This document shows positions 19,490 through 51,296 of a stretch of 64,000 bases of DNA, one piece after another. A program made the translations under genes and the position numbers. The notes below the pieces were generated by a model that had not been told where the DNA came from, made no database searches, and worked only from the letters and a program-made list of their open reading frames with translations. How positions within the stretch are numbered: position 1 is the stretch's first letter; each line of letters opens with the position of its first letter. Origin of the DNA: Leptonemataceae bacterium (GTDB taxonomy: Bacteria; Spirochaetota; Leptospiria; Leptospirales; Leptonemataceae); the NCBI GenBank assembly GCA_965242745.1, contig CBDETG010000034.1:17090-81089 (forward strand), written 5' to 3'.

Positions 19490-19925
19490 AATGCCAGCCG
19501 TCCTTTACTAAGCGCCAGCCCCTCCATTGTGCCTACAGAGCGCTCTAAAAACACATCTATCATCGGAGCTTCGCATCCTTCGTGCGCAGGCATCTTATAT
19601 CTTAGGATAAGCCCTACAGCTGTCAAGGATAAAGTAAATACCACTTCTAAATCATAATATGCCTGCGTATTTTTGCGCAGCAAAAGCGCAAAAAAACAAG
19701 ACACAGTAATGCTCCCGCCTGCTTTTGCGCATTTGAAAGCTTTACAAAGGCAATATGACGACGAGCTGCTTTGCCAAGCGCATATAAAAGCGGAAGTTTG
19801 CTAAAAGAGACGCTAGGCGGGAGAGCTTTTAGCTAGACAGAACAAAGCGCTTCTATAGTGTGAGCTTTGATCCTGCAAGTTAGGCTTCCTTTGCTTAGAG
19901 TCATAACAATTACTTTTGTCTGCCA

Positions 19926-21884
19926 ATGCCCCCTGTAATAAAAGAAAAACAAAGAGCAGCGCTCAGGCCTAGGAAAGGCCATGCAGTAGATGCTATGCAG
20001 CAGAATGGCCATGCATCGCAGAACTTCATTAGGGACAAACATGCGGGCTTAGATAAAAACTCGCAGCAGAATGGCCATGCAGCGCAGAACTTCATTAGAG
20101 ACAAACATGCGGGCTTAGATAAAAACTCGCAGCAGAATGGCTCTGCAGCGCAGAACTTCATTAGAGACAAACATGCGGGCTTAGATAAAAACTCGCAGCA
20201 GAATGGTCTTGCAGCGCAGAACTTCATTAGAGACAAACATGCGGGCTTAGATAAAAACTCGCAGCAGAATGGCTCTGCAGCGCAGAACTTCATTAGGGAC
20301 AAACATGCGGGCTTAGATAAAAACTCGCAGCAGAATGGCTCTGCAGCGCAGAACTTCATTAGGGACAAACATGCGGGCTTAGATAAAAGCTCGCAGCAGA
20401 ATGGCTCTGCAGCGCAGAACTTCATTAGAGACAAACATGCGGACTTAGATAAAAACTCGCAGCAGAATGGCTCTGCAGCGCAGAACTTCATTAGGGACAA
20501 ACATGCGGGCTTAGATAAAAACTCGCAGCAGAATGGCTCTGCAGCGCAGAACTTCATTAGGGACAAACATGCGGGCTTAGATAAAAACTCGCAGCAGAAT
20601 GGCTCTGCAGCGCAGAACTTCATTAGGGACAAACATGCGGGCTTAGATAAAAACTCGCAGCAGAATGGCTCTGCAGCGCAGAACTTCATTAGGGACAAAC
20701 ATGCGGGCTTAGATAAAAACTCGCAGCAGAATGGCTCTGCAGCGCAGAACTTCATTAGGGACAAACATGCGGGCTTAGATAAAAACTCGCAGCAGAATGG
20801 TCTTGCAGCGCAGAACTTCATTAGGGACAAACATGCGGGCTTAGATAAAAACTCGCAGCAGAATGGCTCTGCAGCGCAGAACTTCATTAGAGACAAACAT
20901 GCGGGCTTAGATAAAAACTCGCAGCAGAATGGCTCTGCAGCGCAGAACTTCATTAGGGACAAACATGCGGGCTTAGATAAAAACTCGCAGCAGAATGGTC
21001 TTGCAGCGCAGAACTTCATTAGGGACAAAGAAAAACAAAGAACAGCGCTAAGACCTGAAGAATGCCACGAGGAATATAATTATTTGAAGCTTTTGAAGCA
21101 GATTTTAAGTACGGGAGAGGAGCGCAAAGATCGTACAGGCATAGGGACTCTTAGTATTTTTGGGGCCTGCCTGCATTTTTCTTTAGACTCGTATTTCCCC
21201 CTTCTGACTACCAAGGAGCTGCATTTCAAGTCGATCGCATATGAGCTTTTATGGTTCTTGAAAGGAGAAAGCAATGTCCGCTACCTGCAGGACAAGGGGG
21301 TGCGTATATGGGATGAGTGGGCTGATGAAGACGGCGAGCTGGGGCCTGTTTATGGGGCGCAGTGGCGCAAATGGAGTACAAATGATGGCGCAAGTATAGA
21401 TCAGATTTCTGAGCTTATTGCATCGCTTCGCAATACTCCATTTAGTAGAAGGCATATATTAAGCGCTTGGAATGTCGGCGAGTTGGCGAAAATGAAACTT
21501 CCTCCCTGCCATATCCTTGCGCAATTTTATGTGAGCAATGACAAAGGACTCTCCTGCCAATTCTATCAAAGAAGCGTCGACAGCTTTTTGGGCTTGCCCT
21601 TCAATATCGCATCTTATGCTCTTTTGACTTATATACTAGCGAATGTATGTGGTCTTTGGCCTAAGAGGCTGAGCTTCGTGGGGGGTGATGTGCATTTGTA
21701 CAAAAATCATCTCAGGCAGGCCGAAATACAGCTGCAGCGCAGGCCTTATCCATTTCCAAGACTGCGCTTGAAAAAAAACTATAGCAGCAAAAAAGCAGAC
21801 TGCATAAGCAGGATCGCTTACGAAGATTTTGCGCTGGAAGACTACCGCCATCATGATAAAATACGCGCGCCCATAGCCGTTTAG
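19926..21884 (+). CDS. thyA: Thymidylate synthase (ThyA) with ~370-aa N-terminal extension made of 22-aa tandem repeats
   Basis: The C-terminal ~275 aa align by eye to E. coli ThyA (DRTGIGTLSIFG, IWDEWADEDGELGPVYG.QWR, PPCH, QRSVDSFLGLPFNIASYALL, APIAV end). There is no in-frame ATG between the repeat and the core. The only in-frame ATG start is at 19926, upstream of the repeat. Confidence 0.85.
   Translation: MPPVIKEKQRAALRPRKGHAVDAMQQNGHASQNFIRDKHAGLDKNSQQNGHAAQNFIRDKHAGLDKNSQQNGSAAQNFIRDKHAGLDKNSQQNGLAAQNFIRDKHAGLDKNSQQNGSAAQNFIRDKHAGLDKNSQQNGSAAQNFIRDKHAGLDKSSQQNGSAAQNFIRDKHADLDKNSQQNGSAAQNFIRDKHAGLDKNSQQNGSAAQNFIRDKHAGLDKNSQQNGSAAQNFIRDKHAGLDKNSQQNGSAAQNFIRDKHAGLDKNSQQNGSAAQNFIRDKHAGLDKNSQQNGLAAQNFIRDKHAGLDKNSQQNGSAAQNFIRDKHAGLDKNSQQNGSAAQNFIRDKHAGLDKNSQQNGLAAQNFIRDKEKQRTALRPEECHEEYNYLKLLKQILSTGEERKDRTGIGTLSIFGACLHFSLDSYFPLLTTKELHFKSIAYELLWFLKGESNVRYLQDKGVRIWDEWADEDGELGPVYGAQWRKWSTNDGASIDQISELIASLRNTPFSRRHILSAWNVGELAKMKLPPCHILAQFYVSNDKGLSCQFYQRSVDSFLGLPFNIASYALLTYILANVCGLWPKRLSFVGGDVHLYKNHLRQAEIQLQRRPYPFPRLRLKKNYSSKKADCISRIAYEDFALEDYRHHDKIRAPIAV
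19998..21027 (+). repeat. Tandem repeat, period 66 bp, ~15.6 copies, in frame with thyA
   Basis: The unit ATGCGGGCTTAGATAAAAACTCGCAGCAGAATGGCTCTGCAGCGCAGAACTTCATTAGGGACAAAC repeats with only a few point variants (GGCTCT/GGTCTT/GGCCAT, AGAGAC/AGGGAC). Confidence 0.95.
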
Positions 21885-22012: not shown

Positions 22013-25000
22013 ATGAGTAATACTTTAGAAGAGTTAGCAAAGGGCAAGCCTATTACGGCCCCTGCAGAGGTGCAGGAGTTGGTAGAAAGGTTTCATTCCA
22101 ATGAAGATGGAGCAAGAAAGTATAACGAAACGCAGCTGCGGCTTGAGTATGTCAATCCGCTTTTTGCATGCTTGGGCTGGGATGTGGCCAATAAGGCGGG
22201 GCGCTCCCCCTTGTATAGGGATGTCCAGCACGAATATTCTATGAGAACGCCTGAGGGGATTAGGGCTCCTGACTATTGCTTTCAGATAGGCGGGGTGCAC
22301 AAGTTTTTTCTGGAAACAAAAAAGCCGTCCATCAATATAAAAAGCGATATAGGGCCCGCCTTTCAAGTGAGGCGCTATGGCTGGACAGAGCAATTACCTT
22401 TGTGCATACTTACTGACTTTGAAGAGTTTGCCATATACGATTGTCGTTTTGAGCCTAAGGCGAAAGATCGCGCTGATTTTGCCAGGGCTCAGTATTACAC
22501 TTATGAACATTATTTGACCAAATGGCATGAGATAGCGGGTCTTTTTTCTAAGACAGCCGTACAGGAAGGCTCTTTTGATAGTTTTATTGATAAGAAGAAA
22601 AAAGGTACTTTAGAGGTCAATCGCGCCTTGATTAGAGACATGGAGGGCTGGCGTGATTTGCTGGCTAAGAACATTGCGCGGAATAATAAAAATCTCAGCG
22701 TATCACAGCTGAATTATCTGGTGCAGCTTACGATCGACCGCATTATCTTTTTGCGTATTTGCGAGGATCGCGATATAGAAGAATACGGCCAAATGCAGAA
22801 GCTGCTAAAAAAAGAGCAGGTCTATAAGGGCTTGTGCGGCATCTTTAGGCAAGCCGATGAAAAATACAATTCGGGCTTGTTTCACTTTCAAGACGAAAAG
22901 GGGCGGGGGGCGCATGATAGTGTGAGTCTTGGATTGGCTATTGGCGACAAGCCGCTTAAGGAAATTATCCGCCATCTATATTATCCTAAAAGCTCCTATG
23001 TTTTTTCTAAAATCCCCGCTGATATACTGGGGCAGGTCTACGAGCAATTTTTAGGCAAGGTGATACGCCTGACTCCTGCGCATCAGGCTAAGGTCGAGTA
23101 CAAGCCAGAAGTGCGCAAGGCGGGCGGCGTTTATTATACGCCTACTTATATAGTAGAATATATTGTGAAACATACGGTAGGCGCGCTGCTAAAAAACAAG
23201 ACGCCTGCGCAGGCAAAAAAGCTGCGCGTGCTGGACCCTGCCTGCGGCTCTGGCACCTTTTTGCTGGGCGCATATCAGTATTTACTGCAATGGTATCGCG
23301 ACTGCTACGCCAAAGACGCTGCCAAACATAAAAAGCTGCTTTACAAGGACGGGGCAGACGAGTGGCAGCTCAGCACGCAGGAAAAAAAGGAGATCCTGCT
23401 TAGCAACATTTACGGCGTGGACATTGACAGGCAGGCCGTAGAAGTCACGAAGCTCTCGCTGCTCTTGAAAGTCTTGGAGGGCGAGCACAGTGATAGGCTG
23501 GATCATCAAAGGAGGATCTTTCACGAGCGCGCCCTGCCTGATCTCAGTAATAATATCAAGTGCGGGAATTCGCTGATAGGAACTGACTTTTTTTACGGCA
23601 AGAACTTAGACATGTTCGCGCGCGATGAGATGGAAAAGATTAACGCCTTTGACTGGGACGATGAGGCGCGCGGCTTTGGGAAAATTATGCGTGAGGGCGG
23701 CTTTGATGCGGTGATCGGGAATCCGCCATATGCGCGCCTTCAATCATTACAAGAAAGTCAACCTTACGCTATAGAGACCTATAGAAAAAATTATACAGCT
23801 GCTTCAGAAGGCAATTTTGATATTTATGTGCTATTTACTGAAAAAGGATATAAGCTGCTAAACAAAACAGGAGCTTTAGGCTTTATCCAGCCGCATAAGT
23901 TTATGCAGTCGGATTTTGGCATTGGCTTACGAAATTATTTGAGCGAAAAGAAAGCATTACAAAAAATTGTGCATTTTGGCTCCGAGCAAGTTTTTAATGC
24001 AGCGACAACATATACTTGTTTGATATTTTTAAGTAAAGCAAGGCAGGCGAATTTTGATTTTACGCCTGTGGAAAATCTTATTCCAGATAAGCTGCAGGAA
24101 GTAAAAACATATAAGCTAAAGCAGCCTTTGATTGGCAATAAATGGCATTTTACGAGCCCGCAGAAAGAAAAGGTGATGCAAAAATTACATGCTCAACCTC
24201 TAAGGCTTGGTGATATAGTTAGGAAAATATTTGTTGGCTTGCAAACCAGTGCAGACTCAATTTATGTGCTTAAGGCGCTAAAATGGGACAAAAACCTACT
24301 TACTTGTTATTCTAAATCTTTAGAGAAAGAAATTAGAATTGAAGCAGGCTTGGTGAAACCTTTTTTGATGGGAAAAGACGTAAAACGTTATACAGAAGCT
24401 CGCCCTTTAAACGTCGTAATTTTCCCCTATGAAGTTCGAAAGGGAGGCGCTAATTTGATGTCAGCGCAATATATCAAAAAAAATTTCCCTAGAGGCTGGG
24501 AATACCTTTTAGAGAATAAAAAGGGGTTGGAGGGAAGAGAAAACAGACGTTTTGAAAAAACATGGTGGCAATTTAGCCGTCCTCAAAACTTAAATGAATT
24601 TGCAACGGCTAAAATAATGGCACCAGAAATTGCTTCTTCACCTCAAATGACTTTTGATACAAATGGAAGTATGTATCATACAACCAAAGTATATAGTTTC
24701 TCTTTTCAAGAAAAGCACAACAGTAAATACTACTTAGGTTTATTAAATTCTAATATCTTATGGTTTTTCTTAACTGCTACTGGATATGTTTTGCGAGGCG
24801 GTTTTTATACTTTCAAAACGGAATATCTAAAGCCCTTCCCCATCCCAAAACTCGACCTCACCAACCCCGCCCAAAAAGCCCAGCACGATCGCATGGTGCA
24901 GCTCGTCGATCAGATGCTCGCCGCACAGAAGCAGCTGCATACATCAAAAAACGATAGCGACCGCAGGCATTATCAGCAGAAGGTAGATATACTGGACAGG

Positions 25001-25075
25001 CAGATAGATGCGCTGGTGTATGCGTTGTACGAATTGACCCCGGAGGAGATAGGGATCGTGGAGGGGAGAGGATAA
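22013..25075 (+). CDS. Type IIG restriction-modification fusion enzyme (PD-(D/E)xK nuclease + gamma-class N6-adenine MTase + C-terminal specificity region), paralog 1
   Basis: N-terminal HsdR-N/Mrr-like block (APDYCFQIGGVHKFFLETKKP). SAM motif VLDPACGSGTFLL. Catalytic GFDAVIGNPPY. Long divergent C-terminal region. 1020 aa with AGAGAGG upstream of the ATG. Confidence 0.85.
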   Translation: MSNTLEELAKGKPITAPAEVQELVERFHSNEDGARKYNETQLRLEYVNPLFACLGWDVANKAGRSPLYRDVQHEYSMRTPEGIRAPDYCFQIGGVHKFFLETKKPSINIKSDIGPAFQVRRYGWTEQLPLCILTDFEEFAIYDCRFEPKAKDRADFARAQYYTYEHYLTKWHEIAGLFSKTAVQEGSFDSFIDKKKKGTLEVNRALIRDMEGWRDLLAKNIARNNKNLSVSQLNYLVQLTIDRIIFLRICEDRDIEEYGQMQKLLKKEQVYKGLCGIFRQADEKYNSGLFHFQDEKGRGAHDSVSLGLAIGDKPLKEIIRHLYYPKSSYVFSKIPADILGQVYEQFLGKVIRLTPAHQAKVEYKPEVRKAGGVYYTPTYIVEYIVKHTVGALLKNKTPAQAKKLRVLDPACGSGTFLLGAYQYLLQWYRDCYAKDAAKHKKLLYKDGADEWQLSTQEKKEILLSNIYGVDIDRQAVEVTKLSLLLKVLEGEHSDRLDHQRRIFHERALPDLSNNIKCGNSLIGTDFFYGKNLDMFARDEMEKINAFDWDDEARGFGKIMREGGFDAVIGNPPYARLQSLQESQPYAIETYRKNYTAASEGNFDIYVLFTEKGYKLLNKTGALGFIQPHKFMQSDFGIGLRNYLSEKKALQKIVHFGSEQVFNAATTYTCLIFLSKARQANFDFTPVENLIPDKLQEVKTYKLKQPLIGNKWHFTSPQKEKVMQKLHAQPLRLGDIVRKIFVGLQTSADSIYVLKALKWDKNLLTCYSKSLEKEIRIEAGLVKPFLMGKDVKRYTEARPLNVVIFPYEVRKGGANLMSAQYIKKNFPRGWEYLLENKKGLEGRENRRFEKTWWQFSRPQNLNEFATAKIMAPEIASSPQMTFDTNGSMYHTTKVYSFSFQEKHNSKYYLGLLNSNILWFFLTATGYVLRGGFYTFKTEYLKPFPIPKLDLTNPAQKAQHDRMVQLVDQMLAAQKQLHTSKNDSDRRHYQQKVDILDRQIDALVYALYELTPEEIGIVEGRG

Positions 25076-25096
25076 TCGCAGCAGGAAGGCGTGGAG

Positions 25097-25128
25097 GCTA
25101 AACGCGCCAGCGCGTTTAGCTTTTATTT
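25097..25128 (+). terminator. Rho-independent terminator after RM paralog 1
   Basis: Perfect 10-bp stem GCTAAACGCG / CGCGTTTAGC with a 4-nt loop, followed by TTTTATTT. Confidence 0.7.
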
Positions 25129-25221
25129 GTAAGGCGCGCAAAAAATACGTGTGTCTCATTTTGGGAAATAGCGCGCCAGATTATGCCGCACCGCATGCCC
25201 ATGTACACGGCTTGCGAAGTA

Positions 25222-25241
25222 TTGTGTGCATGGGCACACAA
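25222..25241 (+). promoter_or_regulatory. Palindrome upstream of brnT, candidate operator
   Basis: TTGTGTGC-ATGG-GCACACAA lies 40 nt upstream of the GTG start. A related inverted half-site TGCCCATGTACAC is at 25196-25208. Confidence 0.3.
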
Positions 25242-25280
25242 TGATAGCACCCCCTTGGCATAAGTTCAATAACTGAATTT

Positions 25281-25568
25281 GTGAATGAAATAATATTCAA
25301 GTGGCTCACCGCCAAAGCAATTGTTAATCAAAATAAACATGGTATTTCTTTCGAAGAAGCAGTCACGATTTTTGAAGATGCTCTTTCTTTAACGATAAGC
25401 GACCCCTTGCATTCTGAAAATGAAAACCGTTATATTACAATCGGGCAGAGCAATGCGGGAAAAATTTTAGTTGTAATTCATAGGGATAGTGGCAGTGTGT
25501 TACGAATAATAAGTGCGAGGAGAGCTACGCCAAAGGAACGCAGGGATTATGAACACAGCCAAAGATGA
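25281..25568 (+). CDS. brnT: BrnT-family (DUF497) toxin
   Basis: FKW...KAIVNQNKHGISFEEAVTIFED...ENRYITIGQS..GKILVVIHRD...LRIISARRATPKERRDY matches the BrnT pattern. GTG start. Confidence 0.8.
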   Translation: MNEIIFKWLTAKAIVNQNKHGISFEEAVTIFEDALSLTISDPLHSENENRYITIGQSNAGKILVVIHRDSGSVLRIISARRATPKERRDYEHSQR

Positions 25569-25734
25569 CATGTTACCAGAGTATGACTTTTCAAATGGAG
25601 TTAGGGGAAAATACGCCAGGCGATACAAAAACTCAAATGCAATTGTAATAGACCAAGACCTTATAGACAAGTTCCCTAATTCTGAGAAAGTCAATAAAGC
25701 GCTTAGAGAATATATCAAAATAAAAACGAGGTGA
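25549..25734 (+). CDS. brnA: BrnA-like antitoxin (61 aa)
   Basis: Overlaps the brnT 3' end. The motif LPEYDFSNGVRGKYARRY is typical of antitoxins paired with BrnT. Confidence 0.6.
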   Translation: MNTAKDDMLPEYDFSNGVRGKYARRYKNSNAIVIDQDLIDKFPNSEKVNKALREYIKIKTR

Positions 25735-25882
25735 ATGCCTTGTCTGGCGTTGCGGAGAAAGATCTAATCTTAAAAAACTCAAAAAATAGCCCATTATTTT
25801 TATTGTGTTTTGCTTGTGGCAATGAAAAAGGGAAATCACCCGCTCTAAAAATTGCCAATCACATTATTGGCAAGAGTAACCC

Positions 25883-26602
25883 ATGACCCAATCCGCCATT
25901 GAATGGACGCAGATGACGTGGAACCCCACGACAGGCTGCACCAAAATATCTACGGGCTGTAAGTATTGCTATGCTGAGGTGATGAGCAGCCGCTTGCAAG
26001 CGATGGGCCTTAGAAAATACCGAGATGGCTTTACTAAAATTCGCACGCATAAAGAGGCTCTAAGCATTCCTTACCTTTGGCATAAGCCAAGAGTGATTTT
26101 TGTAAACTCAATGAGCGACCTGTTTCATCCCGAAGTGCCCGATAGCTTCATAAAAAAAGTCTTCCAAGTTATGAACGAAAACCAGCGGCACACCTTTCAA
26201 GTTTTGACAAAGCGTGCACAACGCTTGTTAGAGCTCGATCATCAGTTGCATTGGAGCAGTAATATATGGATGGGAGTATCTGTTGAAAACAAAGCTGCCA
26301 TGCATCGCATTTCTTCTCTTATCAAGACGGGCGCAAAAATGAAGTTCCTCTCTTGCGAGCCCTTGCTGGAATCACTTCCAAGATTGCCGCTGGGGAACAT
26401 TGATTGGGTTATCGTTGGCGGCGAGAGTGGACAAAAGTCAAGAGAGATGGAACAGGCCTGGGCTGTGAATATCCAAAAGCAATGTAGTAAAAATAATGTT
26501 GCTTTTTTCTTTAAGCAGTGGGGTGGAAAAAATAAAAAGAAAAACGGCCGTATTCTAAACGGCAAAACTTACGACGAAATGCCCTCAGCCCACCTCAAGT
26601 AG
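25883..26602 (+). CDS. Phage Gp37/Gp68 family (DUF5131) protein
   Basis: Signature N-terminus IEWTQMTWNPTTGCTKISTGCKYCYA, and WVIVGGESG. Confidence 0.8.
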   Translation: MTQSAIEWTQMTWNPTTGCTKISTGCKYCYAEVMSSRLQAMGLRKYRDGFTKIRTHKEALSIPYLWHKPRVIFVNSMSDLFHPEVPDSFIKKVFQVMNENQRHTFQVLTKRAQRLLELDHQLHWSSNIWMGVSVENKAAMHRISSLIKTGAKMKFLSCEPLLESLPRLPLGNIDWVIVGGESGQKSREMEQAWAVNIQKQCSKNNVAFFFKQWGGKNKKKNGRILNGKTYDEMPSAHLK

Positions 26603-26650
26603 CATAGACCCTTAGCGCATCTCACAAGCGCATCGCATACATATAAAGAA

Positions 26651-26700
26651 GGGATCAAGATCGTGGAGGGGAGAGGATGAGGCGTAGTAGGCAGGCGTGA
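26651..26700 (+). other. Remnant of the 3' end of an RM gene of the same family (tail + ~30 nt downstream)
   Basis: GGGATCAAGATCGTGGAGGGGAGAGGATGAGGCGTAGTAGGCAGGCGTGAGC aligns to 25050-25100 (the end of RM paralog 1 and the sequence just after it). Confidence 0.7.
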
Positions 26701-26975
26701 GCTTTGATAACGGCGGGCGGGGATGTGTAAATGCAGCGTCAGGAGTGCAAAAAATATGTTGCGCTGTGAGATTAAGCGGCTACGTTCGCAGCGAAGGGGT
26801 GTACTGGGACGCTGTAGGATTGGCAGCGGGCGTTGGTGGTAAAATGCGGAGTCTGGCGTTGTTGTAATATGCAGAGTCTGGGCGCCGCATTATGTCGCGT
26901 TGGGCGCAGACGTTTTTTATGACAACAACGCTGCCATCTTCCCACGCCGCATTGGCGCAGGCTACGTTGCATACG
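26700..26975 (+). repeat. GC-rich dispersed repeat element, copy 3
   Basis: CAAAAAATATGTTGCGCTGTGAGATTAAGCGGCTACGTTCGCAG and GTACTGGGACGCTGTAGGATTGGCAGCGGGCGTTGGTGGTAAAATGCGGAGTCTGGCGTTGTTGTAATATGCAGAGTCTGGGCG are identical to 28300-28475. Confidence 0.9.
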
Positions 26976-26983
26976 AGATAAAG

Positions 26984-26998
26984 ATTGTGGAGGGGAGA
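26984..26998 (+). other. Second RM-tail remnant, directly upstream of the 256-aa gene
   Basis: GAGATAAAGATTGTGGAGGGGAGATAA resembles the EEI.IVEGRG* coding end of both RM genes. Confidence 0.55.
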
Positions 26999-27009
26999 TA
27001 AATACTCAT

Positions 27010-27780
27010 ATGGATCAGACCTTTGCAATAAAAATCAGTGGTGAGGGGCTTAGTCCTGAAGAGGTCAGTATTGGAGACCTAGGCAAACTCTTAAGCTCTT
27101 TTGACAAAAGCATAAAATCATTGATTCCAAAAGAAGAGCCCGAGATGGCGAAAGATATAGTTATTGGATTAATTGGTATTGGAACAGGCAGCGCGAAACT
27201 TACATTTAAGACTAAGCTGCCTGTGGTGATGCTTGCATGGTCTTCATTAACTGCAGTAATAAGGGAAAATAATTTTCATACATTACCACCTGAATCCATA
27301 AAACCCTTAAAGGAGATTGCAGATTTATCAAAAAAAAAGCGATGTGCAGTGGAGTTTCATAATACGAATGGAGCAATTTCACCTGCAATCATTCACCCTG
27401 ATACAACTATAGAAATTCCATCTGAGAAGTATATTGAAGTAAGTACAACTATTTATGGCAAAGTGGAAAGAGTAGGCGGCAAAAAGGAGCCTAAAGCGCT
27501 TCTTTCATTACCAAAAACAGGATCACTTTCTTGTGATGTATCTGAGGAAATGGCAAAAAAATTAGCTCAGAGATTATACACATGGGTAGGAGTAGCAGGG
27601 CAGGCAAAATGGAATATCGATGATGACTCTATTGCAGCTTTTCAAATCGAGTCATTGACTTCTTATGAAGATACTCCTCTTTCTGATGCAATACAAGAAC
27701 TAGCAAAAATTACTGGAGAACTCTGGAAGGACGAAGAGGACGTAATTAAAGCTGTAGCAAAACTTAGAGGTAAAATATAA
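27010..27780 (+). CDS. Hypothetical protein (256 aa), upstream partner of the PIN gene
   Basis: The ATG is preceded by GGAGGGGAG. Its stop TAA abuts the ATG of the next gene. I recognise no domain. Confidence 0.7.
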   Translation: MDQTFAIKISGEGLSPEEVSIGDLGKLLSSFDKSIKSLIPKEEPEMAKDIVIGLIGIGTGSAKLTFKTKLPVVMLAWSSLTAVIRENNFHTLPPESIKPLKEIADLSKKKRCAVEFHNTNGAISPAIIHPDTTIEIPSEKYIEVSTTIYGKVERVGGKKEPKALLSLPKTGSLSCDVSEEMAKKLAQRLYTWVGVAGQAKWNIDDDSIAAFQIESLTSYEDTPLSDAIQELAKITGELWKDEEDVIKAVAKLRGKI

Positions 27781-28257
27781 ATGAGACTCGTTTGCTTAGA
27801 TACTCACATTTTAATATGGGGTATCAAAGGGGCAGCGACTGCGGGGCAAGAAGAGAAGGTGGAAGTTGCTCAAGCTTTTATCCAGCACCTTGAGAGTCAA
27901 AAAAGTAAGGCCATCATTCCTTCAGTGGTTATGGCAGAATTTTTGGTGGAGTACAGAGATGATAAGCAAAGGCATGAATTCAGCGCTTTCTTGGATAGGA
28001 AGTTTATGGTGGCGCCGTTTGATACGCAAGCAGCTATTAAGTTTTCAGAAATATGGCAAAAAAATCATCAAAACAAAAGCAAAACAGACACCAGAGACAA
28101 AGTCAAATTTGACTACCAAATTGTTTCGATAGCTGTTACAAAGGGTGCAGATTGTATTTATACGCATGATAAGGACCTGTCCAAGTTTGCCCGAGGTTTC
28201 ATTGAAACACAAGAAATGCCGGACCTAAGAGGGACACAAATGGATTTACCGATGTAA
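27781..28257 (+). CDS. PIN-domain nuclease (VapC-like)
   Basis: Acidic residues are placed as in PIN domains: LDTHILIW (D7), VVMAEFLV, KFDYQIVSIA, YTHDKD. Confidence 0.75.
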   Translation: MRLVCLDTHILIWGIKGAATAGQEEKVEVAQAFIQHLESQKSKAIIPSVVMAEFLVEYRDDKQRHEFSAFLDRKFMVAPFDTQAAIKFSEIWQKNHQNKSKTDTRDKVKFDYQIVSIAVTKGADCIYTHDKDLSKFARGFIETQEMPDLRGTQMDLPM

Positions 28258-28295
28258 ACAATGCTTCGCTTGCTGCGACGGCATGCTCGGGAATT

Positions 28296-28680
28296 AAGCC
28301 CGCGCAAAAAATATGTTGCGCTGTGAGATTAAGCGGCTACGTTCGCAGTGAAAATACAGCGTCGGCCTTGTTGTAATAAGCGGCGTTTGTGTACTGGGAC
28401 GCTGTAGGATTGGCAGCGGGCGTTGGTGGTAAAATGCGGAGTCTGGCGTTGTTGTAATATGCAGAGTCTGGGCGTTGTTGCGTAACACAAAAGCGAGAAT
28501 CGGCGATTCCACGCAGGCACCACAGCGCTTATCAGCTATTTTGCGAATTACACAACAAGGCCCCCAGTTAGCAAAACTAGCGCTGCCTACTCCCAACGTC
28601 GCTTATAGCTACACCGCCCTCGTCATCAAAACTACCGCCCACTCCCAGCGCCATATTTGTACAACAACGCGACACTGAAT
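28296..28680 (+). repeat. GC-rich dispersed repeat element, copy 4 (forward units followed by inverted units)
   Basis: The first ~180 nt equal copy 3 apart from a ~37-nt insertion. The distal half carries reverse-oriented units (ATTACACAACAAGGCC, TTTGTACAACAACGCG) like the copy at 47225-47470. Confidence 0.9.
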
Positions 28681-30608: not shown

Positions 30609-30809
30609 ATTTCTAAGCTTTCGCGCTGAGCAGATAAAGATAGCTTTCGTACTATGGTTTAGGATGCCAAGCATTATTCTGTCCTGCAGGGTAAAAAGCA
30701 TGCCTCTAGTACATAGACAAGGCGCACTGGAAGCCTAAAAAAGCTCTATTTCATCAAGTGAGCGCATTTCTGTTTGACAGCGCTTAAGGCAAAACCAAGC
30801 TGTTTTCTT

Positions 30810-33614
30810 ATGTCTGCGCCCGCCGAAGTCCAGCGTCTTGTAGAAAATTTTGATGCGCACATCGACTCCTACAAAGCAGGGTCCTATAACGAGACGCAGC
30901 TGCGCGTGGATTTCGTTGATCCACTTTTTAGCTGCATGGGCTGGGACATCAATAATCAAGCGGGCTTTGCTGAAAGTTACCGCGACGTGCTGCACGAATA
31001 TACGCTTAAGACCAAAGACGGCACGAAGGCGCCCGACTATTGCTTTTGTATTGGCGGCGCCCGCAAATTCTTTTTAGAGACGAAAAAGCCCGCCGTGCAT
31101 ATCAAAGATGACGCTGCGCCCGCCTTTCAACTGCGGCGTTACGGCTGGTCGGCGAGTCTGCCCTTGAGCATCCTCACGGACTTTGAGGAATTTGCCGTCT
31201 ATGATTGCCGCATCAAGCCGCAGCAAAAGGACCGCGCCTCTGTCGCTCGGCTTATGTATTTTACTTACAAGGATTATTTAGACGAGTGGGAGGAGCTGGC
31301 GGGGCTTTTTTCTAAGAGAGCGATTCAACAAGGCGCTTTTGATACGTTTGTCAGCTCGGATAAAAAAAAGAAAGGCGCAAGCGAGATTGACAAGTCCTTT
31401 TTAGCGGACATGGAGAGGTGGCGCGAGCTGCTTGCTAAAAACATTGCGCTGCGCAACGCAAAGCTGAGTCAAAAAGAGATGAACCATTACGTGCAGGCGA
31501 CGATGGATCGCATCATCTTTTTGCGCATCTGCGAGGATCGTAATATAGAAGAATACGGCCGGCTGCAGGAGCTGCTAAAAAAAGAGCGCGTCTATAAGGG
31601 CTTGTGCCGCCTCTTTAGGCAGGCTGACGCAAAATACAATTCGGGCTTGTTTTGCTTTGAGGACGAAAGGGGGCGGGGGGCGCCTGATAGGGTGAGTCTT
31701 AGATTGGCTGTTGACGACAAGCCGCTGCAAGAAATTATCCGCCATCTGTATTATCCCCAAAGCCCCTACGTGTTTTCGCAGATTCCAGCAGAGATCTTAG
31801 GGCAGGTTTATGAAAAGTTTTTAGGCAAGGTGATACGTCTGACTCCTGCGCATCAGGCCAAAGTAGAAGAGAAGCCCGAAGTGCGCAAGGCAGGCGGCGT
31901 TTATTATACGCCCAAATACGTAGTCGATTACATCGTAAAAAATACGGTGGGCGCGCTGCTCAAAAACAAGACGCCCGCGCAGGCAAAAAAGCTGCGTGTG
32001 CTGGACCCTGCCTGCGGCTCTGGCTCCTTTTTGCTTGGCGCTTATCAGTTTCTTCTGCGCTGGTATCTGCAAAGTTATAGCAAGGAGCCTGCCAAAAATA
32101 CAAAGCGCATCTATCAAGACGACAAGGGCCGGTGGTCTTTGGCGACGAGGGAAAAAAAGGAGATCCTGCTTAGCAACATTTACGGCGTGGACATTGACAG
32201 GCAGGCCGTAGAGGTCACAAAGCTCTCGCTGCTCTTGCAGGTGCTGGAGGGTGAAAACAGCGATACGCTGGATGCGGAGCGCCGCCTCTTTGCCGAGCGC
32301 GCCCTGCCTGATCTGCGTCATAATATCAAGTGCGGGAATTCGCTGATCGGGACTGACTTTTTTTACGGCAAGAACTTAGATATCTTCGAGCAGAATGAGA
32401 TGGAAAAGATTAACGCCTTTGACTGGGACGATGAGGCGCGAGGCTTTGGGGAGATCATGCGTGAGGGCGGTTTTGATGCGGTGATTGGGAATCCGCCTTA
32501 TGGGGCGGAAATTACAGCAGTCCAAAGGAAGTATATTGATAATAGATTAGATTACTCTTCAGGAACAAAAAACTCTGCAATTTATTTTATTAGTCTTGCA
32601 AAACAATTACTAAGTCCTAATGGAATTTTATCGTTTATTATTCCTAAGTCGGTATGTTATTCAAATGGTTGGAAGGAATGCGCATTGATGTTGATAAAAA
32701 GGCTGGTGAAGTTAATTGATGTAGAAAAAGCATTTCAAGGCGTAAAGCTAGAGCAGATCATATTTCTATGCGACCAGAATAACAAAAAGGATTCTTATAC
32801 AAATGGTCTCGTGATAAATGGAGAAATAAAGCAACAGTCAATCGTTAAAAAATCAGTGTTTTCCAAATATAATATATTGCTTGCGGGACAAGTAAAAAGT
32901 GAAATTGATATTATAAACAAGATTACAACAAATTTTTCAAAAATGCTTTCTGATTATGTGTTTATTGAACGTGGTTTGAATTGGCAGAGCCAAGTTAAAG
33001 AAAAGCGAGGTCAAACTCCTGTATTTAGGGGCGCTCAACTTAACCGCTATGCGCTAGATGACGCTACAGATTTCATTTCTTTGAAAAAATTTTCTAAAGG
33101 AGAGTATGAATACCAACTGAAACCAAAACTCTTGAATCAATTAGTCATTGCTCATGTGAAAAACCCTTATCCTCATTTTTATCTACAAGGCTTTTTAGAT
33201 TTTGAGAATAGGATTGTTTTTGAAACAATATCATGTATCTTTCCTCAAGATAAGGCGAAAGTAAATTTATATTTTTTACTAGGGTTGAATAACTCAAAAT
33301 TATTCGCATGGTTACTGTATAAATTTGTATTTTCTAACGCTATACGTAGTATTCGCTTTGATAACCTCTATGTGAAAAAGATACCTGTACCCGACCTTAA
33401 TGAGATAAACCAATCTGGTATAGCAAAACTTGCAACTCAGATACTCGCCGCACAAAAAAAACTGCATACATCAAAATCCGATAGCGACCGCAGGCATTAT
33501 CAGCAGAAGGCGGATATACTTGATAGACAGATAGATGCGCTGGTCTATGAATTGTATGAACTAAGGCCGGAGGAAATCAGGATTGTGGAGGGGAGGGGAT
33601 GCGAGGAGAGATAG
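30810..33614 (+). CDS. Type IIG restriction-modification fusion enzyme, paralog 2 (different C-terminal specificity region)
   Basis: Same architecture and motifs as 22013-25075 (APDYCFCIGGARKFFLETKKP, VLDPACGSGSFLL, GFDAVIGNPPY). The sequence after NPPY is unrelated until the shared last ~50 aa. Confidence 0.85.
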   Translation: MSAPAEVQRLVENFDAHIDSYKAGSYNETQLRVDFVDPLFSCMGWDINNQAGFAESYRDVLHEYTLKTKDGTKAPDYCFCIGGARKFFLETKKPAVHIKDDAAPAFQLRRYGWSASLPLSILTDFEEFAVYDCRIKPQQKDRASVARLMYFTYKDYLDEWEELAGLFSKRAIQQGAFDTFVSSDKKKKGASEIDKSFLADMERWRELLAKNIALRNAKLSQKEMNHYVQATMDRIIFLRICEDRNIEEYGRLQELLKKERVYKGLCRLFRQADAKYNSGLFCFEDERGRGAPDRVSLRLAVDDKPLQEIIRHLYYPQSPYVFSQIPAEILGQVYEKFLGKVIRLTPAHQAKVEEKPEVRKAGGVYYTPKYVVDYIVKNTVGALLKNKTPAQAKKLRVLDPACGSGSFLLGAYQFLLRWYLQSYSKEPAKNTKRIYQDDKGRWSLATREKKEILLSNIYGVDIDRQAVEVTKLSLLLQVLEGENSDTLDAERRLFAERALPDLRHNIKCGNSLIGTDFFYGKNLDIFEQNEMEKINAFDWDDEARGFGEIMREGGFDAVIGNPPYGAEITAVQRKYIDNRLDYSSGTKNSAIYFISLAKQLLSPNGILSFIIPKSVCYSNGWKECALMLIKRLVKLIDVEKAFQGVKLEQIIFLCDQNNKKDSYTNGLVINGEIKQQSIVKKSVFSKYNILLAGQVKSEIDIINKITTNFSKMLSDYVFIERGLNWQSQVKEKRGQTPVFRGAQLNRYALDDATDFISLKKFSKGEYEYQLKPKLLNQLVIAHVKNPYPHFYLQGFLDFENRIVFETISCIFPQDKAKVNLYFLLGLNNSKLFAWLLYKFVFSNAIRSIRFDNLYVKKIPVPDLNEINQSGIAKLATQILAAQKKLHTSKSDSDRRHYQQKADILDRQIDALVYELYELRPEEIRIVEGRGCEER

Positions 33615-33670
33615 CGTTTTTAGAAAGAGATGGTTTATAGAAAAGTACAAATCAATCAGAACAGATTGCT
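33516..33670 (+). repeat. 155-bp direct repeat, copy A (3' end of RM paralog 2 + first 41 nt of the ImmA-like gene)
   Basis: Aligns to 35346-35500 at a constant offset of 1830 bp with about 6-7 mismatches. Confidence 0.95.
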
Positions 33671-34778
33671 TTATCTGTTGAAACTATTCTCTTACAAGAA
33701 AGAGAAGCTTTTAGAACACGTCAATTCTCACTATAAACGCCCAAAAGAATTTAAAGATTTATTCAATGATGAAATTGATATTGGGGTACTAAAAAAAATA
33801 GATGCTCTCTTTCAACAGGGGCTGAGCTATTATACAGACCCTACTGATATAGAACCTAGCGGCAAGAATAGTATATTTTTTAGAAAGCGGCGCTTCAATA
33901 CTACATTAGTTTTTGGTGATTATTTGCGCGTGAATGCTATAGAGCGAGAAGCGCAGCATCTCAATGCGCTTGTAAAATTATGCAATTACCCCATTGGAAA
34001 TATCCCATTTAACGATAGCCTTGACAGCTCTCCAGACCTAGCTGCTAAAAAGGCTATAGCGGAGTTTTACCCAGAACAAGGGATTAAGGACGACAGAGAT
34101 TTCTTAAAGGCTTTCATACATAAATTGTCAGAAAAGAACATTGTAGTATTTGAATATGTGGAAACTTGGAACCAAAACTATAAGAGTAGTTTGGACGGCC
34201 TCTTTATTAAGCCCAATATCATTGCCATTAAGAGACAACAAGATAGTCTTAAAAGAGAAATTTTTACCCTGGCTCATGAGCTTGGACATTGCATACTAAG
34301 CCAAGAAGAAATTGATCAGCCGGTTATAGAACAGCGTTTAGAAAACGAAACTGAAAAATGGTGCAATGATTTCGCTTTTGCTTTTTTAATAGGGCCGGAA
34401 AAAAAGAGACTTTTACTGCAAAGATCCGATTTTAGTTTGCAGTCTTCCTATATTCGGCAAATCACTCAGGAACAACATTTAAGCCGTTTAGCTATTTTTA
34501 CATTTCTTTGGATTCATCAAAAAATTTCATGGGTGGCATACCAGAACATTAAGAAGCAACTCAAGCAAGAGTACGAAAGTCGTCAAAAGAAAAAAGAAGA
34601 ACAAAAAATACGAAATAAAGAGTCAGGAATAAAGCAAAGAGGCGGCCCCCCTAAGCCTATTCATTCAAAACTCGCAGAAGATATTTATCGCAGCGCGTTT
34701 TTAAACAATGTAGTTAAGGAATACGAAGTATTGATGCGCTTTGGCAAAAAAGATATAGATAACTTTATTTATGGATAA
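33630..34778 (+). CDS. ImmA/IrrE-like (COG2856) zinc metallopeptidase domain protein
   Basis: HExxH motif in FTLAHELGHCIL. 382 aa. Starts 15 nt after the RM paralog 2 stop. Confidence 0.65.
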   Translation: MVYRKVQINQNRLLYLLKLFSYKKEKLLEHVNSHYKRPKEFKDLFNDEIDIGVLKKIDALFQQGLSYYTDPTDIEPSGKNSIFFRKRRFNTTLVFGDYLRVNAIEREAQHLNALVKLCNYPIGNIPFNDSLDSSPDLAAKKAIAEFYPEQGIKDDRDFLKAFIHKLSEKNIVVFEYVETWNQNYKSSLDGLFIKPNIIAIKRQQDSLKREIFTLAHELGHCILSQEEIDQPVIEQRLENETEKWCNDFAFAFLIGPEKKRLLLQRSDFSLQSSYIRQITQEQHLSRLAIFTFLWIHQKISWVAYQNIKKQLKQEYESRQKKKEEQKIRNKESGIKQRGGPPKPIHSKLAEDIYRSAFLNNVVKEYEVLMRFGKKDIDNFIYG

Positions 34779-35337
34779 ATACCTTATAGATACAAGCTCT
34801 CTTATAAGTTTAGCGCGCTACTACGCTCCTTTTGACGAAGAAAAAATTCTTTATACCGCAATACATAAAATGTTTATCGATCACAAGTGTGTGCTTTTAG
34901 AAAGCGTATTTAATGAGGCAAAGAACGTTGCTAAAGGCATAATTACAAAAACCTATGTTTTCTTAAAAGATATACCAAGAGAAAAAAATATATCAGTTAT
35001 TCCACCGCCTCTCCACATCAAAATTGATAACAACTGGGCGGTAAAACTTCACAATAAGATTGATAACAACTGGGCGGTAATATCCCAAAAAGCAAAATTA
35101 GCAGCAGCCGAATATGAAACACGCAAAAAAAAAGAGATAGAAAAAGCGGATTTTCAACTTATTTTCATGGCGCAAAATCAGAAAAATTGTACTATAGTTT
35201 CTGAAGAGAGCAAAAAAGAAAACGATCAAAAGCTATTTAAAAAGATTCCACTTATCTGCAAAGATGAAGAAATAACGTGTATTAGACTGCCAGAGATGAT
35301 GAAAGCTAATGGTATTCATATCGAATATAAAGTGTAA
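34771..35337 (+). CDS. DUF4411-like (PIN-like) protein
   Basis: N-terminus MDKYLIDTSSLISLARYYAPF resembles the DUF4411 start. Overlaps the upstream gene by 8 nt. Contains an internal 36-bp duplication (KIDNNWAV twice). Confidence 0.5.
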   Translation: MDKYLIDTSSLISLARYYAPFDEEKILYTAIHKMFIDHKCVLLESVFNEAKNVAKGIITKTYVFLKDIPREKNISVIPPPLHIKIDNNWAVKLHNKIDNNWAVISQKAKLAAAEYETRKKKEIEKADFQLIFMAQNQKNCTIVSEESKKENDQKLFKKIPLICKDEEITCIRLPEMMKANGIHIEYKV

Positions 35338-35345
35338 TGATATAA

Positions 35346-35500
35346 ATACTTGACGCGCAGATAGATGCGCTGGTCTATGAATTGTATGAACTAAGGCCGG
35401 AGGAAATCAGGATTGTGGAGGGGAGGGGAGGCGAGAAGACATAGCGTCTTTAGAAAGAGATGGTTTATAGAAAAGTACAAATCAATCAGAACAGATTGCT
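35346..35500 (+). repeat. 155-bp direct repeat, copy B
   Basis: See 33516-33670. It carries a second RM-tail motif and a truncated ImmA-like start (MVYRKVQINQNRLL then divergence). Confidence 0.95.
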
Positions 35501-47224: not shown

Positions 47225-47470
47225 CGCAAGCGCTAATCCCATAAGCTTCCCGCATACCAGCGCCCAGACTCCGCATTTTCACAACAAGGCCGGCTGTTTT
47301 TACCTGTATTATGTCGCGTTGCGCCCAAAACGCCGCATATTAGCAACACCGCCGCCGTTAGCACAAACAACGCTGCTTGTTACAACAACGCCAGACGCCG
47401 CCTACTACAACCCCGCCCGCAGTCAGCAAAACCAACGCTATATTATTACAACAACGCCTGCGACATAAGT
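47225..47470 (-). repeat. GC-rich dispersed repeat element, copy 5 (inverted orientation)
   Basis: CGCCCAGACTCCGCAT...ACAACAA units. The 3' part is the reverse complement of 2490-2560. Confidence 0.85.
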
Positions 47471-50357: not shown

Positions 50358-50771
50358 CTATCGCTTGCCTGAGTCAGGCACAGACGAGGGTGTCTGCTTT
50401 TGTATAAGCTGGATTAGCAGCTGTCTAATTTCTTGTATGTCTTGCTTTGTGCTTGACTTTAGCTCTGCTATATCTTGCTTGGTGTCCCTTATAGCAAAAA
50501 ACAGCACTGCAAAGCCTATTCCCATAACTGAGAGCACTATTGCAGCCATAGTCATAAGGTTTCTATGACTCCACTTTAGCCAGTCATAGCCAACGCTTAG
50601 CTTTTCATAGACAGTACTTAGCTCGTTTACTTTTTGCTTTAATTCCTGCAATGGACTGGAGGCTCTTGCTTTCTGTTCTTTCTTTTGCATGACAACTGGG
50701 GAATCCTGCCCCCACCTTCCCCAGTAATGAAAAGGCCTATACTGTGCTAGTCTTTTACTATATATAGACAT
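50358..50771 (-). CDS. Bdr/DUF1640-like small membrane protein
   Basis: The first 66 aa are identical to 51297-51713. A TM segment follows, then AELKSSTKQDIQEIRQLLIQLIQKQTP. The start may be the internal MQKKEQK. Confidence 0.65.
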   Translation of the reverse strand: MSIYSKRLAQYRPFHYWGRWGQDSPVVMQKKEQKARASSPLQELKQKVNELSTVYEKLSVGYDWLKWSHRNLMTMAAIVLSVMGIGFAVLFFAIRDTKQDIAELKSSTKQDIQEIRQLLIQLIQKQTPSSVPDSGKR

Positions 50772-50800
50772 ATAAAGTAGCTAAGTGTCAAGAAAAAAAC

Positions 50801-51041: not shown

Positions 51042-51042
51042 C

Positions 51043-51226: not shown

Positions 51227-51296
51227 AAAAAAGCGCCCGCCTGCGCCGGTCTGCCCGCCACCTGCCTGCGCGCAGGGGCAGGAGCGGATGGCGGGG

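What the first reader, a model, noticed from the sequence alone, without database searches (positions are those of the whole stretch)
26700..28680. Unknown 256-aa protein + PIN nuclease cassette bracketed by near-identical direct GC-rich repeats
Genes 27010-27780 and 27781-28257 abut (TAA then ATG). The second is a clear PIN domain. The first is far larger than a classical VapB antitoxin and has no motif I recognise. The AT-rich pair is flanked by direct repeats that are identical over ~45 nt and ~85 nt blocks (26750-26900 vs 28300-28475), differing by one ~37-nt insertion. It is preceded by an RM-tail remnant. This looks like a discrete mobile or recombined two-gene unit of unknown function sitting between TA and RM genes.
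Basis: partly seen in the sequence, partly recalled or inferred. Interest (0 to 1): 0.7.

Follow-up and report, generated by a model that had tools for sequence, protein, structure and literature searches.

The report
Uncharacterised OB-fold partner plus PIN nuclease
A PIN ribonuclease gene sits next to a 256-residue partner from a large, unnamed family containing an OB-fold domain; the two always occur together, making a likely new toxin-antitoxin or anti-phage module that is often attached to restriction enzymes.

Summary
Genes 27010-27780 (256 aa) and 27781-28257 (158 aa, PIN) abut. They are AT-rich and flanked by direct repeats: 26747-26884 and 28304-28474, with 49 nt at 98%, 86 nt at 100%, and a ~36-nt insert in the right copy. 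A 27-nt restriction-gene tail precedes them.

The 256-aa protein matches no Pfam, NCBIfam, PADLOC or PDB sequence. It nevertheless belongs to a large family, with 1686 clusters at 50% identity. A confident model (pLDDT 93) shows an N-terminal alpha/beta domain, a canonical OB fold and an acidic C-terminal helical pair ending in a 99%-conserved Arg.

The pairing is obligate. All 59 informative loci found from the PIN side have the partner directly upstream, and the two proteins co-evolve (r=0.90). The PIN keeps its catalytic acidic residues. A type IIG restriction-modification (RM) gene lies directly upstream in four other lineages.

The repeats are not part of the conserved unit. Homology to the nearest relative stops at the gene ends, one third of each repeat is a dispersed host intergenic unit, and no recombinase is nearby.

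Best reading: a horizontally acquired VapBC-like toxin-antitoxin or abortive-infection module with a new, large OB-fold antitoxin. Function is untested.

The parts
26648..26680 (+). RM-tail remnant A (...GIKIVEGRG*), after the DUF5131 gene
   Evidence: 20 nt (26659-26678) identical to the RM1 3' end at 25054-25073 (D17, 46, 83)
26747..26884 (+). Left direct repeat, 138 nt
   Evidence: Only 26841-26897 resembles dispersed units elsewhere in the window. Its predicted RNA fold is not unusual (z=-0.8).
26855..26932 (.). Long imperfect palindrome made of two inverted dispersed units (GCGTTGTTGTAATA / TATGACAACAACGC)
   Evidence: I1; z=-2.2 and -2.7
26972..26998 (+). RM-tail remnant B (EIKIVEGR + TAA). 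It contains the GGAGGGGAG Shine-Dalgarno-like run 12-20 nt before the ATG of the 256-aa gene.
   Evidence: It aligns with the RM-stop/partner-start junction of L001.
27010..27780 (+). Partner gene, 256 aa: N-terminal alpha/beta domain (1-128), OB fold (141-217), acidic C-terminal helical pair (224-252) with conserved Arg253. Putative antitoxin or sensor.
27781..28257 (+). VapC-like PIN nuclease, 158 aa, with D7, E53, D81, D111 and D130 invariant across the family. Putative toxin or effector.
28304..28474 (+). Right direct repeat, 171 nt (the left repeat plus about 36 nt at 28353-28388 that is itself one more dispersed unit)

Best explanation
This is a horizontally acquired, self-contained two-gene module of the VapBC (PIN toxin / upstream antitoxin) kind. 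The usual small DNA-binding antitoxin is replaced by a 256-aa three-part protein.

Shown:
- The two genes are translationally coupled and always occur together.
- They co-evolve as a unit.
- The PIN keeps a complete catalytic acidic set.
- The partner has a canonical OB fold and an acidic C-terminal helical pair ending in a near-invariant arginine.

Inferred:
- The partner binds the PIN and keeps it silent. It most likely does so by laying its C-terminal helices over the active site, with Arg253 entering the acidic pocket, as Arg68 of FitA does in FitAB (from memory).
- The N-terminal and OB domains sense a trigger (phage nucleic acid or protein, or loss of the partner itself).
- The freed PIN then cuts tRNA or rRNA and arrests the cell. 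This would give abortive infection and/or stabilise the neighbouring restriction genes.

History of the locus: in this genome the module once sat directly behind a type IIG restriction-modification gene, whose last 27 nt survive. The flanking direct repeats are a recombination or duplication scar in host intergenic repeat DNA, not part of the module.
For: Family size and annotation: the profile search gives 1686 clusters at E<=1e-3 and 457 at E<=1e-30, nearly all 250-270 aa. None has a Pfam, NCBIfam or PADLOC name. RefSeq calls both genes 'hypothetical protein' on a Methylobacterium plasmid.

Synteny: of the loci found through the partner (L001-L013; L001 and L006 are the same contig), 10 distinct ones from five phyla have an intact PIN abutting or overlapping by 4 nt; in the other two (L002, L003) the PIN is lost or truncated. 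In the reverse search starting from the PIN, 59 of 59 loci with at least 170 nt of upstream room have the partner directly upstream on the same strand.

Co-evolution: pairwise identities of partner and PIN correlate with r=0.90 (Mantel p=0.001).

PIN: D7, E53, D81, D111 and D130 are invariant. The nearest solved relatives are VapC15 and the tRNA(fMet)-specific VapC.

Partner structure: pLDDT 93.4, pTM 0.82. The OB fold matches ExoVII, Lys/AspRS anticodon-binding domains, SSB and RPA. R253 is 99% conserved, the C-terminal tail has pI 4.6, and the family median pI is 5.1.

Decay pattern: where a locus is degraded, the PIN is the gene broken and the partner stays intact (L002, L003, L075).

Foreign origin: GC and GC3 differ from the host. 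There is 78% nt identity to the L006 cassette, confined to 26993-28240.

RM link: a type IIG RM gene lies directly upstream in L001, L007, L014 and L077, and the window keeps only the tail.
Against:
- The partner has no recognisable DNA-binding domain for autoregulation.
- The OB domain is not basic (pI 6.2), so nucleic-acid binding is not assured.
- The decay pattern is biased for L002 and L003, which were found through the partner.
- dN/dS of the partner against L001 is 0.59, compared with 0.23 for the PIN. This could mean relaxed constraint in this lineage.
Confidence: 0.55

Rival explanations
1. The pair is a two-subunit nuclease, not a toxin-antitoxin pair. The OB-fold protein would be a substrate-recognition or recruiting subunit for the PIN (for example for a tRNA anticodon loop or single-stranded nucleic acid). 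It could act as a second line behind a type IIG restriction enzyme, by analogy with PrrC and EcoprrI (from memory).
For: The top OB-fold fold hits include Lys/AspRS anticodon-binding domains and SSB/RPA. An RM gene lies directly upstream in the window remnant plus L001, L007, L014 and L077. Eco57I/N6_Mtase are the commonest families among 98 neighbours in 30 loci. The partner has no DNA-binding antitoxin domain.
Against: The fold matches are generic OB hits with E around 1e-3 and TM 0.2-0.25. The OB domain is near-neutral and the whole partner is acidic. Only about 1 locus in 6-7 has an RM neighbour; the rest sit among unrelated housekeeping genes. Loci where the PIN is lost but the partner is kept fit an antidote better than a cofactor.
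Confidence: 0.2
2. The direct repeats are the ends of a mobile cassette. The unit (one repeat plus two genes) would move by excision and integration through repeat-by-repeat recombination, and the neighbouring pairs would be sister cassettes in a cassette array behind RM genes.
For: The repeats are identical over 86 nt and 98% over 49 nt. Their 5' ~95 nt occur only at these two places in the window. The ImmA/IrrE + DUF4411 pair is likewise bracketed by 155-nt repeats, made of the RM2 tail plus 55 nt (D14, 46). BrnTA + DUF5131 lie between an RM tail and its 20-nt copy. All three units are AT-rich relative to the host.
Against: No integrase, transposase or resolvase was found among the 18 ORFs scanned between 14.5 and 41.4 kb. 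Homology with the closest foreign cassette ends inside the genes and excludes the repeats. The 3' third of the repeat is a dispersed host unit. The repeat does not fold unusually (z=-0.8). The rest of the source genome could not be searched for further copies.
Confidence: 0.15
3. It is a decaying remnant with no present function. The upstream RM gene has been deleted and the pair is drifting.
For: Only 27 nt of the RM gene remain. Partner dN/dS is 0.59 against L001. No sigma-70-type promoter match lies upstream.
Against: Both ORFs are full length. All family-invariant positions are kept (G156, Y190, G197, and also W201, F211, R253; PIN D7, E53, D81, D111, D130). A Shine-Dalgarno-like run is kept 12-20 nt before the ATG. 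The promoter scan only covers sigma-70 consensus.
Confidence: 0.1

Closest known systems
VapBC type II toxin-antitoxin systems (PIN toxin VapC with upstream antitoxin VapB; FitAB is a structural example)
   Same: The PIN has the conserved acidic residues. The partner gene lies immediately upstream and is translationally coupled. The partner is acidic with a C-terminal segment ending in a conserved Arg. Distribution is patchy, the module is horizontally transferred, and it sits among RM and TA genes.
   Different: The partner is 256 aa rather than about 70-100 aa. It has no AbrB, RHH, PHD or HTH DNA-binding domain and no Pfam match, and it is built around an OB fold plus an unassigned alpha/beta domain. 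The PIN falls far below the NCBIfam VapC cut-off (19 bits against 80).
PIN toxins with large non-canonical partners: ImmA/IrrE (DUF955)-PIN and DUF433-PIN_10, described by Matelska et al. 2017 (PMC5499597)
   Same: A PIN is paired with a large or unusual upstream regulator, in defence islands and linked to RM genes. An example of the first kind lies in this same window at 33630-35337.
   Different: The partner family and fold are different. Matelska et al. saw PIN genes with type I RM subunits and state they did not observe them with type II RM systems. Here the recurrent neighbour is a single-chain type IIG enzyme.
PrrC / EcoprrI: an RM-linked latent anticodon nuclease (from memory, not tested here)
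   Same: A ribonuclease gene is physically attached to a restriction-modification gene, and might be unleashed when restriction is blocked.
   Different: PrrC is an ABC-ATPase fused to its own nuclease domain and sits inside a type Ic operon. This module is PIN plus an OB-fold partner, lies downstream of type IIG genes in only a minority of loci, and occurs alone in most.
Phage proteins in BFVD, including a DUF6575-annotated Siphoviridae protein. DUF6575 is listed among new defence domains by Vassallo et al. 2022 (PMC9519451).
   Same: The partner model resembles them in fold over most of its length: A0A8S5QA00 at E=6e-11, and Leptospira phage LE1 Q6NE06 at E=7e-8 with TMq 0.48.
   Different: No sequence-level match to DUF6575 or to any PADLOC PD-system model exceeds noise. 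TM-scores are only 0.4-0.5. Which part of those proteins is DUF6575 could not be checked.
REP/BIME-like dispersed intergenic repeats (as a model for the flanks)
   Same: A short GC-rich unit occurs in both orientations in five intergenic regions, forms palindromic pairs, and varies in copy number between the two flanks.
   Different: The 5' ~95 nt of the 138-nt repeat occur only at the two flanks within this window. The family has not been described for this unidentified organism.

Membership tests
VapBC type II toxin-antitoxin | Toxin is a PIN domain with the conserved acidic catalytic residues | tested here: met
   PF01850 at E=4e-9, above the cut-off. D7, E53, D111 and D130 (plus D81) are invariant in 11 family members. 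Nearest solved structures are VapC15 and VapC.
VapBC type II toxin-antitoxin | Antitoxin gene immediately upstream, in one operon with the toxin | tested here: met
   TAA and ATG abut in the window. Genes abut or overlap by 4 nt in the other loci. 59/59 in the reciprocal survey.
VapBC type II toxin-antitoxin | Antitoxin is a small protein with an N-terminal DNA-binding domain (AbrB, RHH, PHD/YefM or HTH) | tested here: not met
   The partner is 256 aa. The window protein has no Pfam hit at E<=0.1, and among 98 members only four single-member chance-level hits (E 0.001-0.01), none to a DNA-binding family. The model shows an alpha/beta domain, an OB fold and two helices.
VapBC type II toxin-antitoxin | Toxin arrests growth and is neutralised by direct binding of the antitoxin | not testable with these tools
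Integron gene cassette | Integron integrase (intI) and attI nearby | tested here: not met
   No integrase or recombinase family was found among the 18 ORFs scanned between 14.5 and 41.4 kb.
Integron gene cassette | Cassette ends in an attC site, an imperfect palindrome that folds as a hairpin | tested here: not met
   The flanks are 138/171-nt direct repeats. The repeat does not fold better than shuffles (z=-0.8 and -0.1). R'/R'' core sites were not searched.
Known anti-phage defence systems (PADLOC-DB v2) | Significant match of a component to a system model | tested here: not met
   Neither window protein has a hit at E<=0.1. The only weak hits are 8 of 98 partner homologues to PDC-M32A (best E=2e-4) and 4 of 11 PINs to PDC-M11A.
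PrrC/RloC-type RM-linked anticodon nuclease | Nuclease gene embedded in or attached to an RM operon | tested here: inconclusive
   A type IIG RM gene lies directly upstream in L001, L007, L014 and L077, and a 27-nt RM tail lies in the window. Most loci have no RM neighbour.
PrrC/RloC-type RM-linked anticodon nuclease | ABC-ATPase N-domain fused to the anticodon nuclease domain | tested here: not met
   The effector is a stand-alone PIN, and neither protein has an ATPase domain.
REP/BIME-like dispersed intergenic repeats (flanks only) | Many copies, intergenic, both orientations, palindromic units | tested here: inconclusive
   Met for the roughly 22-nt unit: 11 matches against 0.33 expected, in five intergenic regions, with a palindromic pair at z=-2.2 and -2.7. 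The 5' ~95 nt of the repeat occur only twice in this window, and the rest of the genome could not be searched.

The most novel reading that the evidence does not exclude
The OB-fold/PIN pair is a new class of restriction-linked retaliation system. Riding on the conserved 3' tail of type IIG restriction-modification genes (...LVYxLYxLTxEEIxIVEG), it would be held silent while the restriction enzyme works. When a phage disables restriction, it would be released to cut tRNA, with the OB domain choosing the target. That conserved RM tail would also serve as a recombination landing pad that lets such two-gene cassettes be swapped between genomes. This would explain the three tail-bracketed cassettes in this window.
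Probability: 0.12. Interest if true: 0.8.

Novelty: new variant of a known kind. Interest (0 to 1): 0.55.

Why it matters
The partner defines a large protein family (over 1600 clusters at 50% identity, in at least six phyla and on a plasmid). It has no name in Pfam, NCBIfam, PADLOC or RefSeq, yet it now has a confident fold and an obligate PIN nuclease neighbour.

If the neutralisation model holds, it adds a new antitoxin architecture (an OB-fold sensor-like body with a short inhibitory tail) to the VapBC world. It also gives a ready candidate anti-phage system.

The repeated attachment to type IIG restriction genes runs against an earlier survey that saw no PIN genes with type II RM systems. 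It offers a testable case of cooperation between restriction and an RNase back-up. The three cassettes bracketed by restriction-gene tails hint at how defence islands are assembled.

Tried and rejected
Searches that found nothing useful:
- Sequence searches of the partner against PDB, both single profile and 98-sequence profile, gave only noise. The PIN alone had no PDB hit.
- tblastn of the partner, a second family member and the PIN against 50,697 phage records gave no match.
- IMG/VR pattern scans found no relatives.
- The plasmid collection gave no match for the window protein or an L010 homologue, and one distant hit through P0007.
- PHROGs gave two families of unknown function only.
- A second word-indexed homologue search with the wide profile added little.

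Leads that stayed unresolved:
- PADLOC hits to PDC-M32A are too weak to call, and the PINs do not hit PDC-M32B.
- The DUF6575 lead from BFVD could not be confirmed at sequence level, and the Vassallo supplements do not mention it.
- Literature searches for an OB-fold partner of a PIN toxin found nothing relevant.
- The source organism could not be identified. The exact-sequence look-ups returned no names and no contig.

Ideas rejected:
- The promoter/terminator scan gave no upstream sigma-70 site and fewer sites than shuffles.
- The repeat as a structured RNA is rejected (z=-0.8).
- An integron or transposon origin is rejected for lack of any recombinase and of palindromic ends.
- The aspS neighbour, together with OB hits to AspRS/LysRS anticodon domains, was considered as a functional link. 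It was dropped as coincidence, because only one other locus has a class II synthetase, 2.8 kb away.
Full report
**1. The observation**

The sequence shows two abutting ORFs on the plus strand: 27010-27780 (256 aa) and 27781-28257 (158 aa), with TAA directly followed by ATG. The second is a PIN domain (PF01850, E=4e-9, 37.5 bits against a cut-off of 23.6).

The pair is flanked by direct repeats. 26747-26795 matches 28304-28352 (49 nt, 98%). 26799-26884 matches 28389-28474 (86 nt, 100%). The right copy carries about 36 extra nt.

The genes are 38-41% GC, and GC3 of the first is 0.27. The flanking intergenic DNA is 52% GC, the window 46% and aspS 49%.

Just upstream, 26972-26998 reads EIKIVEGR-stop. 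This is the C-terminal signature of the two type IIG restriction-modification genes in the window (RM1 22013-25075, RM2 30774-33614; PADLOC REase_MTase_IIG at 1e-247 and 1e-177). It has 15 nt identical to the RM2 end. All elements of the finding are therefore real.

**2. The 256-aa protein**

It has no hit in Pfam, PADLOC or NCBIfam, and no sequence match in PDB. The word-indexed search found only six relatives. An exhaustive profile search found 1686 clusters (50% identity) at E<=1e-3 and 457 at E<=1e-30, nearly all 250-270 aa.

Ninety-eight diverse members have no meaningful Pfam match either: four single-member hits at E 0.001-0.01, none to a DNA-binding family. On a RefSeq Methylobacterium plasmid both genes of the pair are annotated 'hypothetical protein'.

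With the 98-sequence alignment, AlphaFold2 gave a confident model (pLDDT 93.4, pTM 0.82). It has three parts:
- An N-terminal alpha/beta domain (1-128).
- A canonical OB fold with beta1-beta2-beta3-alpha-beta4-beta5 order (141-217).
- Two C-terminal helices (224-252).

Foldseek against PDB returned only OB-fold proteins: the ExoVII large subunit, Lys/AspRS anticodon-binding domains, SSB, RPA and IF1. These had E around 1e-3 and covered about a quarter of the query. Against viral models, three uncharacterised phage proteins matched over most of the length, one of them annotated DUF6575 (E=6e-11 to 7e-8). DUF6575 is listed among new defence-associated domains in PMC9519451, but I could not confirm the link by sequence.

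Conservation is highest in the OB domain (T146, Y149, G150, R154, G156, G157, P161, Y190, G197, W201, F211) and at R253, which is 99% conserved. The protein is acidic: the family median pI is 5.1 and the C-terminal tail has pI 4.6.

**3. The pairing**

Eleven distinct other loci were found through the partner. Ten of them, from five phyla (Bacteroidota, Planctomycetota, Verrucomicrobiota, Bacillota and Desulfobacterota), have an intact PIN gene of the same subfamily abutting or overlapping by 4 nt; the eleventh (L002) has lost most of it.

Starting from the PIN instead, 64 metagenome loci were retrieved. All 59 with at least 170 nt of upstream sequence carry the partner directly upstream on the same strand.

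Pairwise identities of the two proteins across 40 complete pairs correlate with r=0.90 (r=0.82 without near-identical pairs; Mantel p=0.001).

The PINs keep D7, E53, D81, D111 and D130 without exception. Their nearest solved relatives are VapC15 and the tRNA(fMet)-specific VapC.

In three degraded loci the PIN is the broken gene while the partner is intact: L003 (internal deletion next to IS66), L002 and L075. This is what one expects if the partner is the antidote. The first two cases are biased by how they were found.

**4. Context and origin**

The window cassette is 78% identical in DNA to a cassette in a MAG labelled Owenweeksia. The homology runs only from 26993 to 28240, that is, the RM-stop junction plus the two genes. 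The RM genes of the two genomes share only short 77-80% patches. In that MAG the order is type IIG RM, a 4-nt gap, partner, then PIN.

A type IIG RM gene lies directly upstream in three further independent lineages (L007, L014, L077). All of these RM genes end in the same motif...LVYxLYxLTxEEIxIVEG.

Among 98 nearest neighbours in 30 distinct loci, Eco57I/N6_Mtase are the commonest families (4 loci). Most neighbours are unrelated housekeeping genes. The module is therefore autonomous, with a recurrent minority attachment to type IIG RM. An earlier PIN survey reported links to type I but not type II RM systems (PMC5499597).

In the window, only the last 27 nt of such an RM gene remain. They supply the Shine-Dalgarno-like GGAGGGGAG run before the partner's ATG.

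**5. The flanking repeats**

Their 3' third (about 26841-26897) belongs to a short GC-rich unit, GAGTCTGGGCGTTGTTGTAATA. This unit occurs in both orientations in five intergenic regions of the window (11 matches against 0.33 expected). It forms a long palindrome next to the left repeat. The extra 36 nt in the right copy is one more such unit.

The 5' ~95 nt occur only at the two flanks within this window.

The repeat does not fold unusually. No recombinase gene was found among the 18 ORFs scanned between 14.5 and 41.4 kb, and the repeats are not part of the homologous cassette elsewhere.

I therefore read them as a duplication or recombination scar in host repeat DNA. It could still mediate loss or gain of the cassette by homologous recombination.

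Two neighbouring units show the same pattern, with restriction-gene tails as the repeats:
- ImmA/IrrE + DUF4411 (33630-35337) lies between 155-nt repeats at 95% identity.
- BrnTA + DUF5131 lies between the RM1 end and a 20-nt identical copy.

This suggests that the conserved RM tail acts as a recombination anchor. That remains an inference.

**6. Mechanism**

The best-supported model is a VapBC-like toxin-antitoxin or abortive-infection module with a new, large antitoxin (confidence 0.55).

Shown: coupling, obligate synteny, co-evolution, an intact catalytic set, and the OB fold plus acidic tail with an invariant Arg.

Inferred: the tail with Arg253 blocks the PIN active site, as Arg68 of FitA does in FitAB (from memory). 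The N-terminal and OB domains sense a trigger. The released PIN then cleaves tRNA or rRNA.

Rivals:
- A cofactor or specificity-subunit model, possibly as an RM-linked back-up (0.2).
- A repeat-bounded mobile cassette (0.15).
- A decaying remnant (0.1; partner dN/dS is 0.59 against 0.23 for the PIN).

**7. Verdict**

It is not a member of classical VapBC, because the antitoxin criterion fails. It is not an integron cassette, and it is not in PADLOC. It works most like VapBC.

It is a new variant of a known kind: a widespread, unnamed OB-fold partner family tied to one PIN subfamily. Interest is moderate (0.55). Many candidate TA and defence pairs exist, but this one is large, clean, structurally defined and recurrently tied to type IIG restriction genes.

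Noticed in passing
window 33516-35500: An ImmA/IrrE M78 peptidase (33630-34778, weak PADLOC RmrA/CapP hits) and a DUF4411 PIN-like protein (34771-35337) form a second TA-like pair. It is bracketed by 155-nt direct repeats at 95% identity, made of the last ~100 nt of RM2 plus 55 nt downstream (33516-33670 and 35346-35500).
   Followed up: partly
window 25043-26680: BrnT/BrnA (25281-25734) and a DUF5131 protein (25883-26602; PADLOC candidates PDC-M41B and PDC-M30B at E=1e-121) lie between the RM1 stop and a copy of the RM1 tail with 20 identical nt (26659-26678). No TcmP-like partner for DUF5131 was seen.
   Followed up: partly
window 22013-25075 and 30774-33614: Two paralogous type IIG restriction-modification genes lie 8770 nt apart on either side of aspS. 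They are 81-91% identical in DNA over the N-terminal two thirds and 85% over the last 164 nt, but differ in the target-recognition part.
   Followed up: partly
window 2498-2553, 4626-4710, 26856-26931, 28365-28670, 47378-47457: A dispersed GC-rich intergenic unit of about 22 nt (GAGTCTGGGCGTTGTTGTAATA) occurs in both orientations, often in tandem or palindromic pairs. It makes the intergenic DNA more GC-rich than the genes.
   Followed up: partly
window 19865-21884: The thymidylate synthase gene (19926-21884) carries an N-terminal extension of about 380 aa. It is built from 16 tandem copies of a 66-nt unit, most at 96% identity.
   Followed up: no
window 61909-62710: A perfect 300-nt direct repeat, with copies starting 502 nt apart (61909-62208 and 62411-62710), overlaps two ORFs of 147 and 172 aa.
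   Followed up: no
window 810-1380, 49778-50175, 50559-51847, 52118-53367: Several further tandem or dispersed repeat families lie inside or between ORFs (periods of 93-96, 42 and 78 nt, plus 300-nt copies 942 nt apart).
   Followed up: no
window 37472-38425 (minus strand): An N6/N4 DNA methylase (PF01555) has no obvious restriction partner among the ORFs scanned. It lies 2 kb beyond the RM2 island.
   Followed up: no
window 27010-28257 compared with L001 6001-7260: Adjacent genes differ in substitution pattern. The partner has dS 0.36 and dN/dS 0.59. The PIN has dS 0.88 and dN/dS 0.23. This could reflect fast evolution of the partner or a recombination breakpoint between the genes.
   Followed up: no
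L078 (NZ_CP015368.1, 79168-87881): The same partner-PIN pair sits on a mobilizable Methylobacterium phyllosphaerae plasmid next to a recombinase family gene. Both genes are annotated 'hypothetical protein'.
   Followed up: partly
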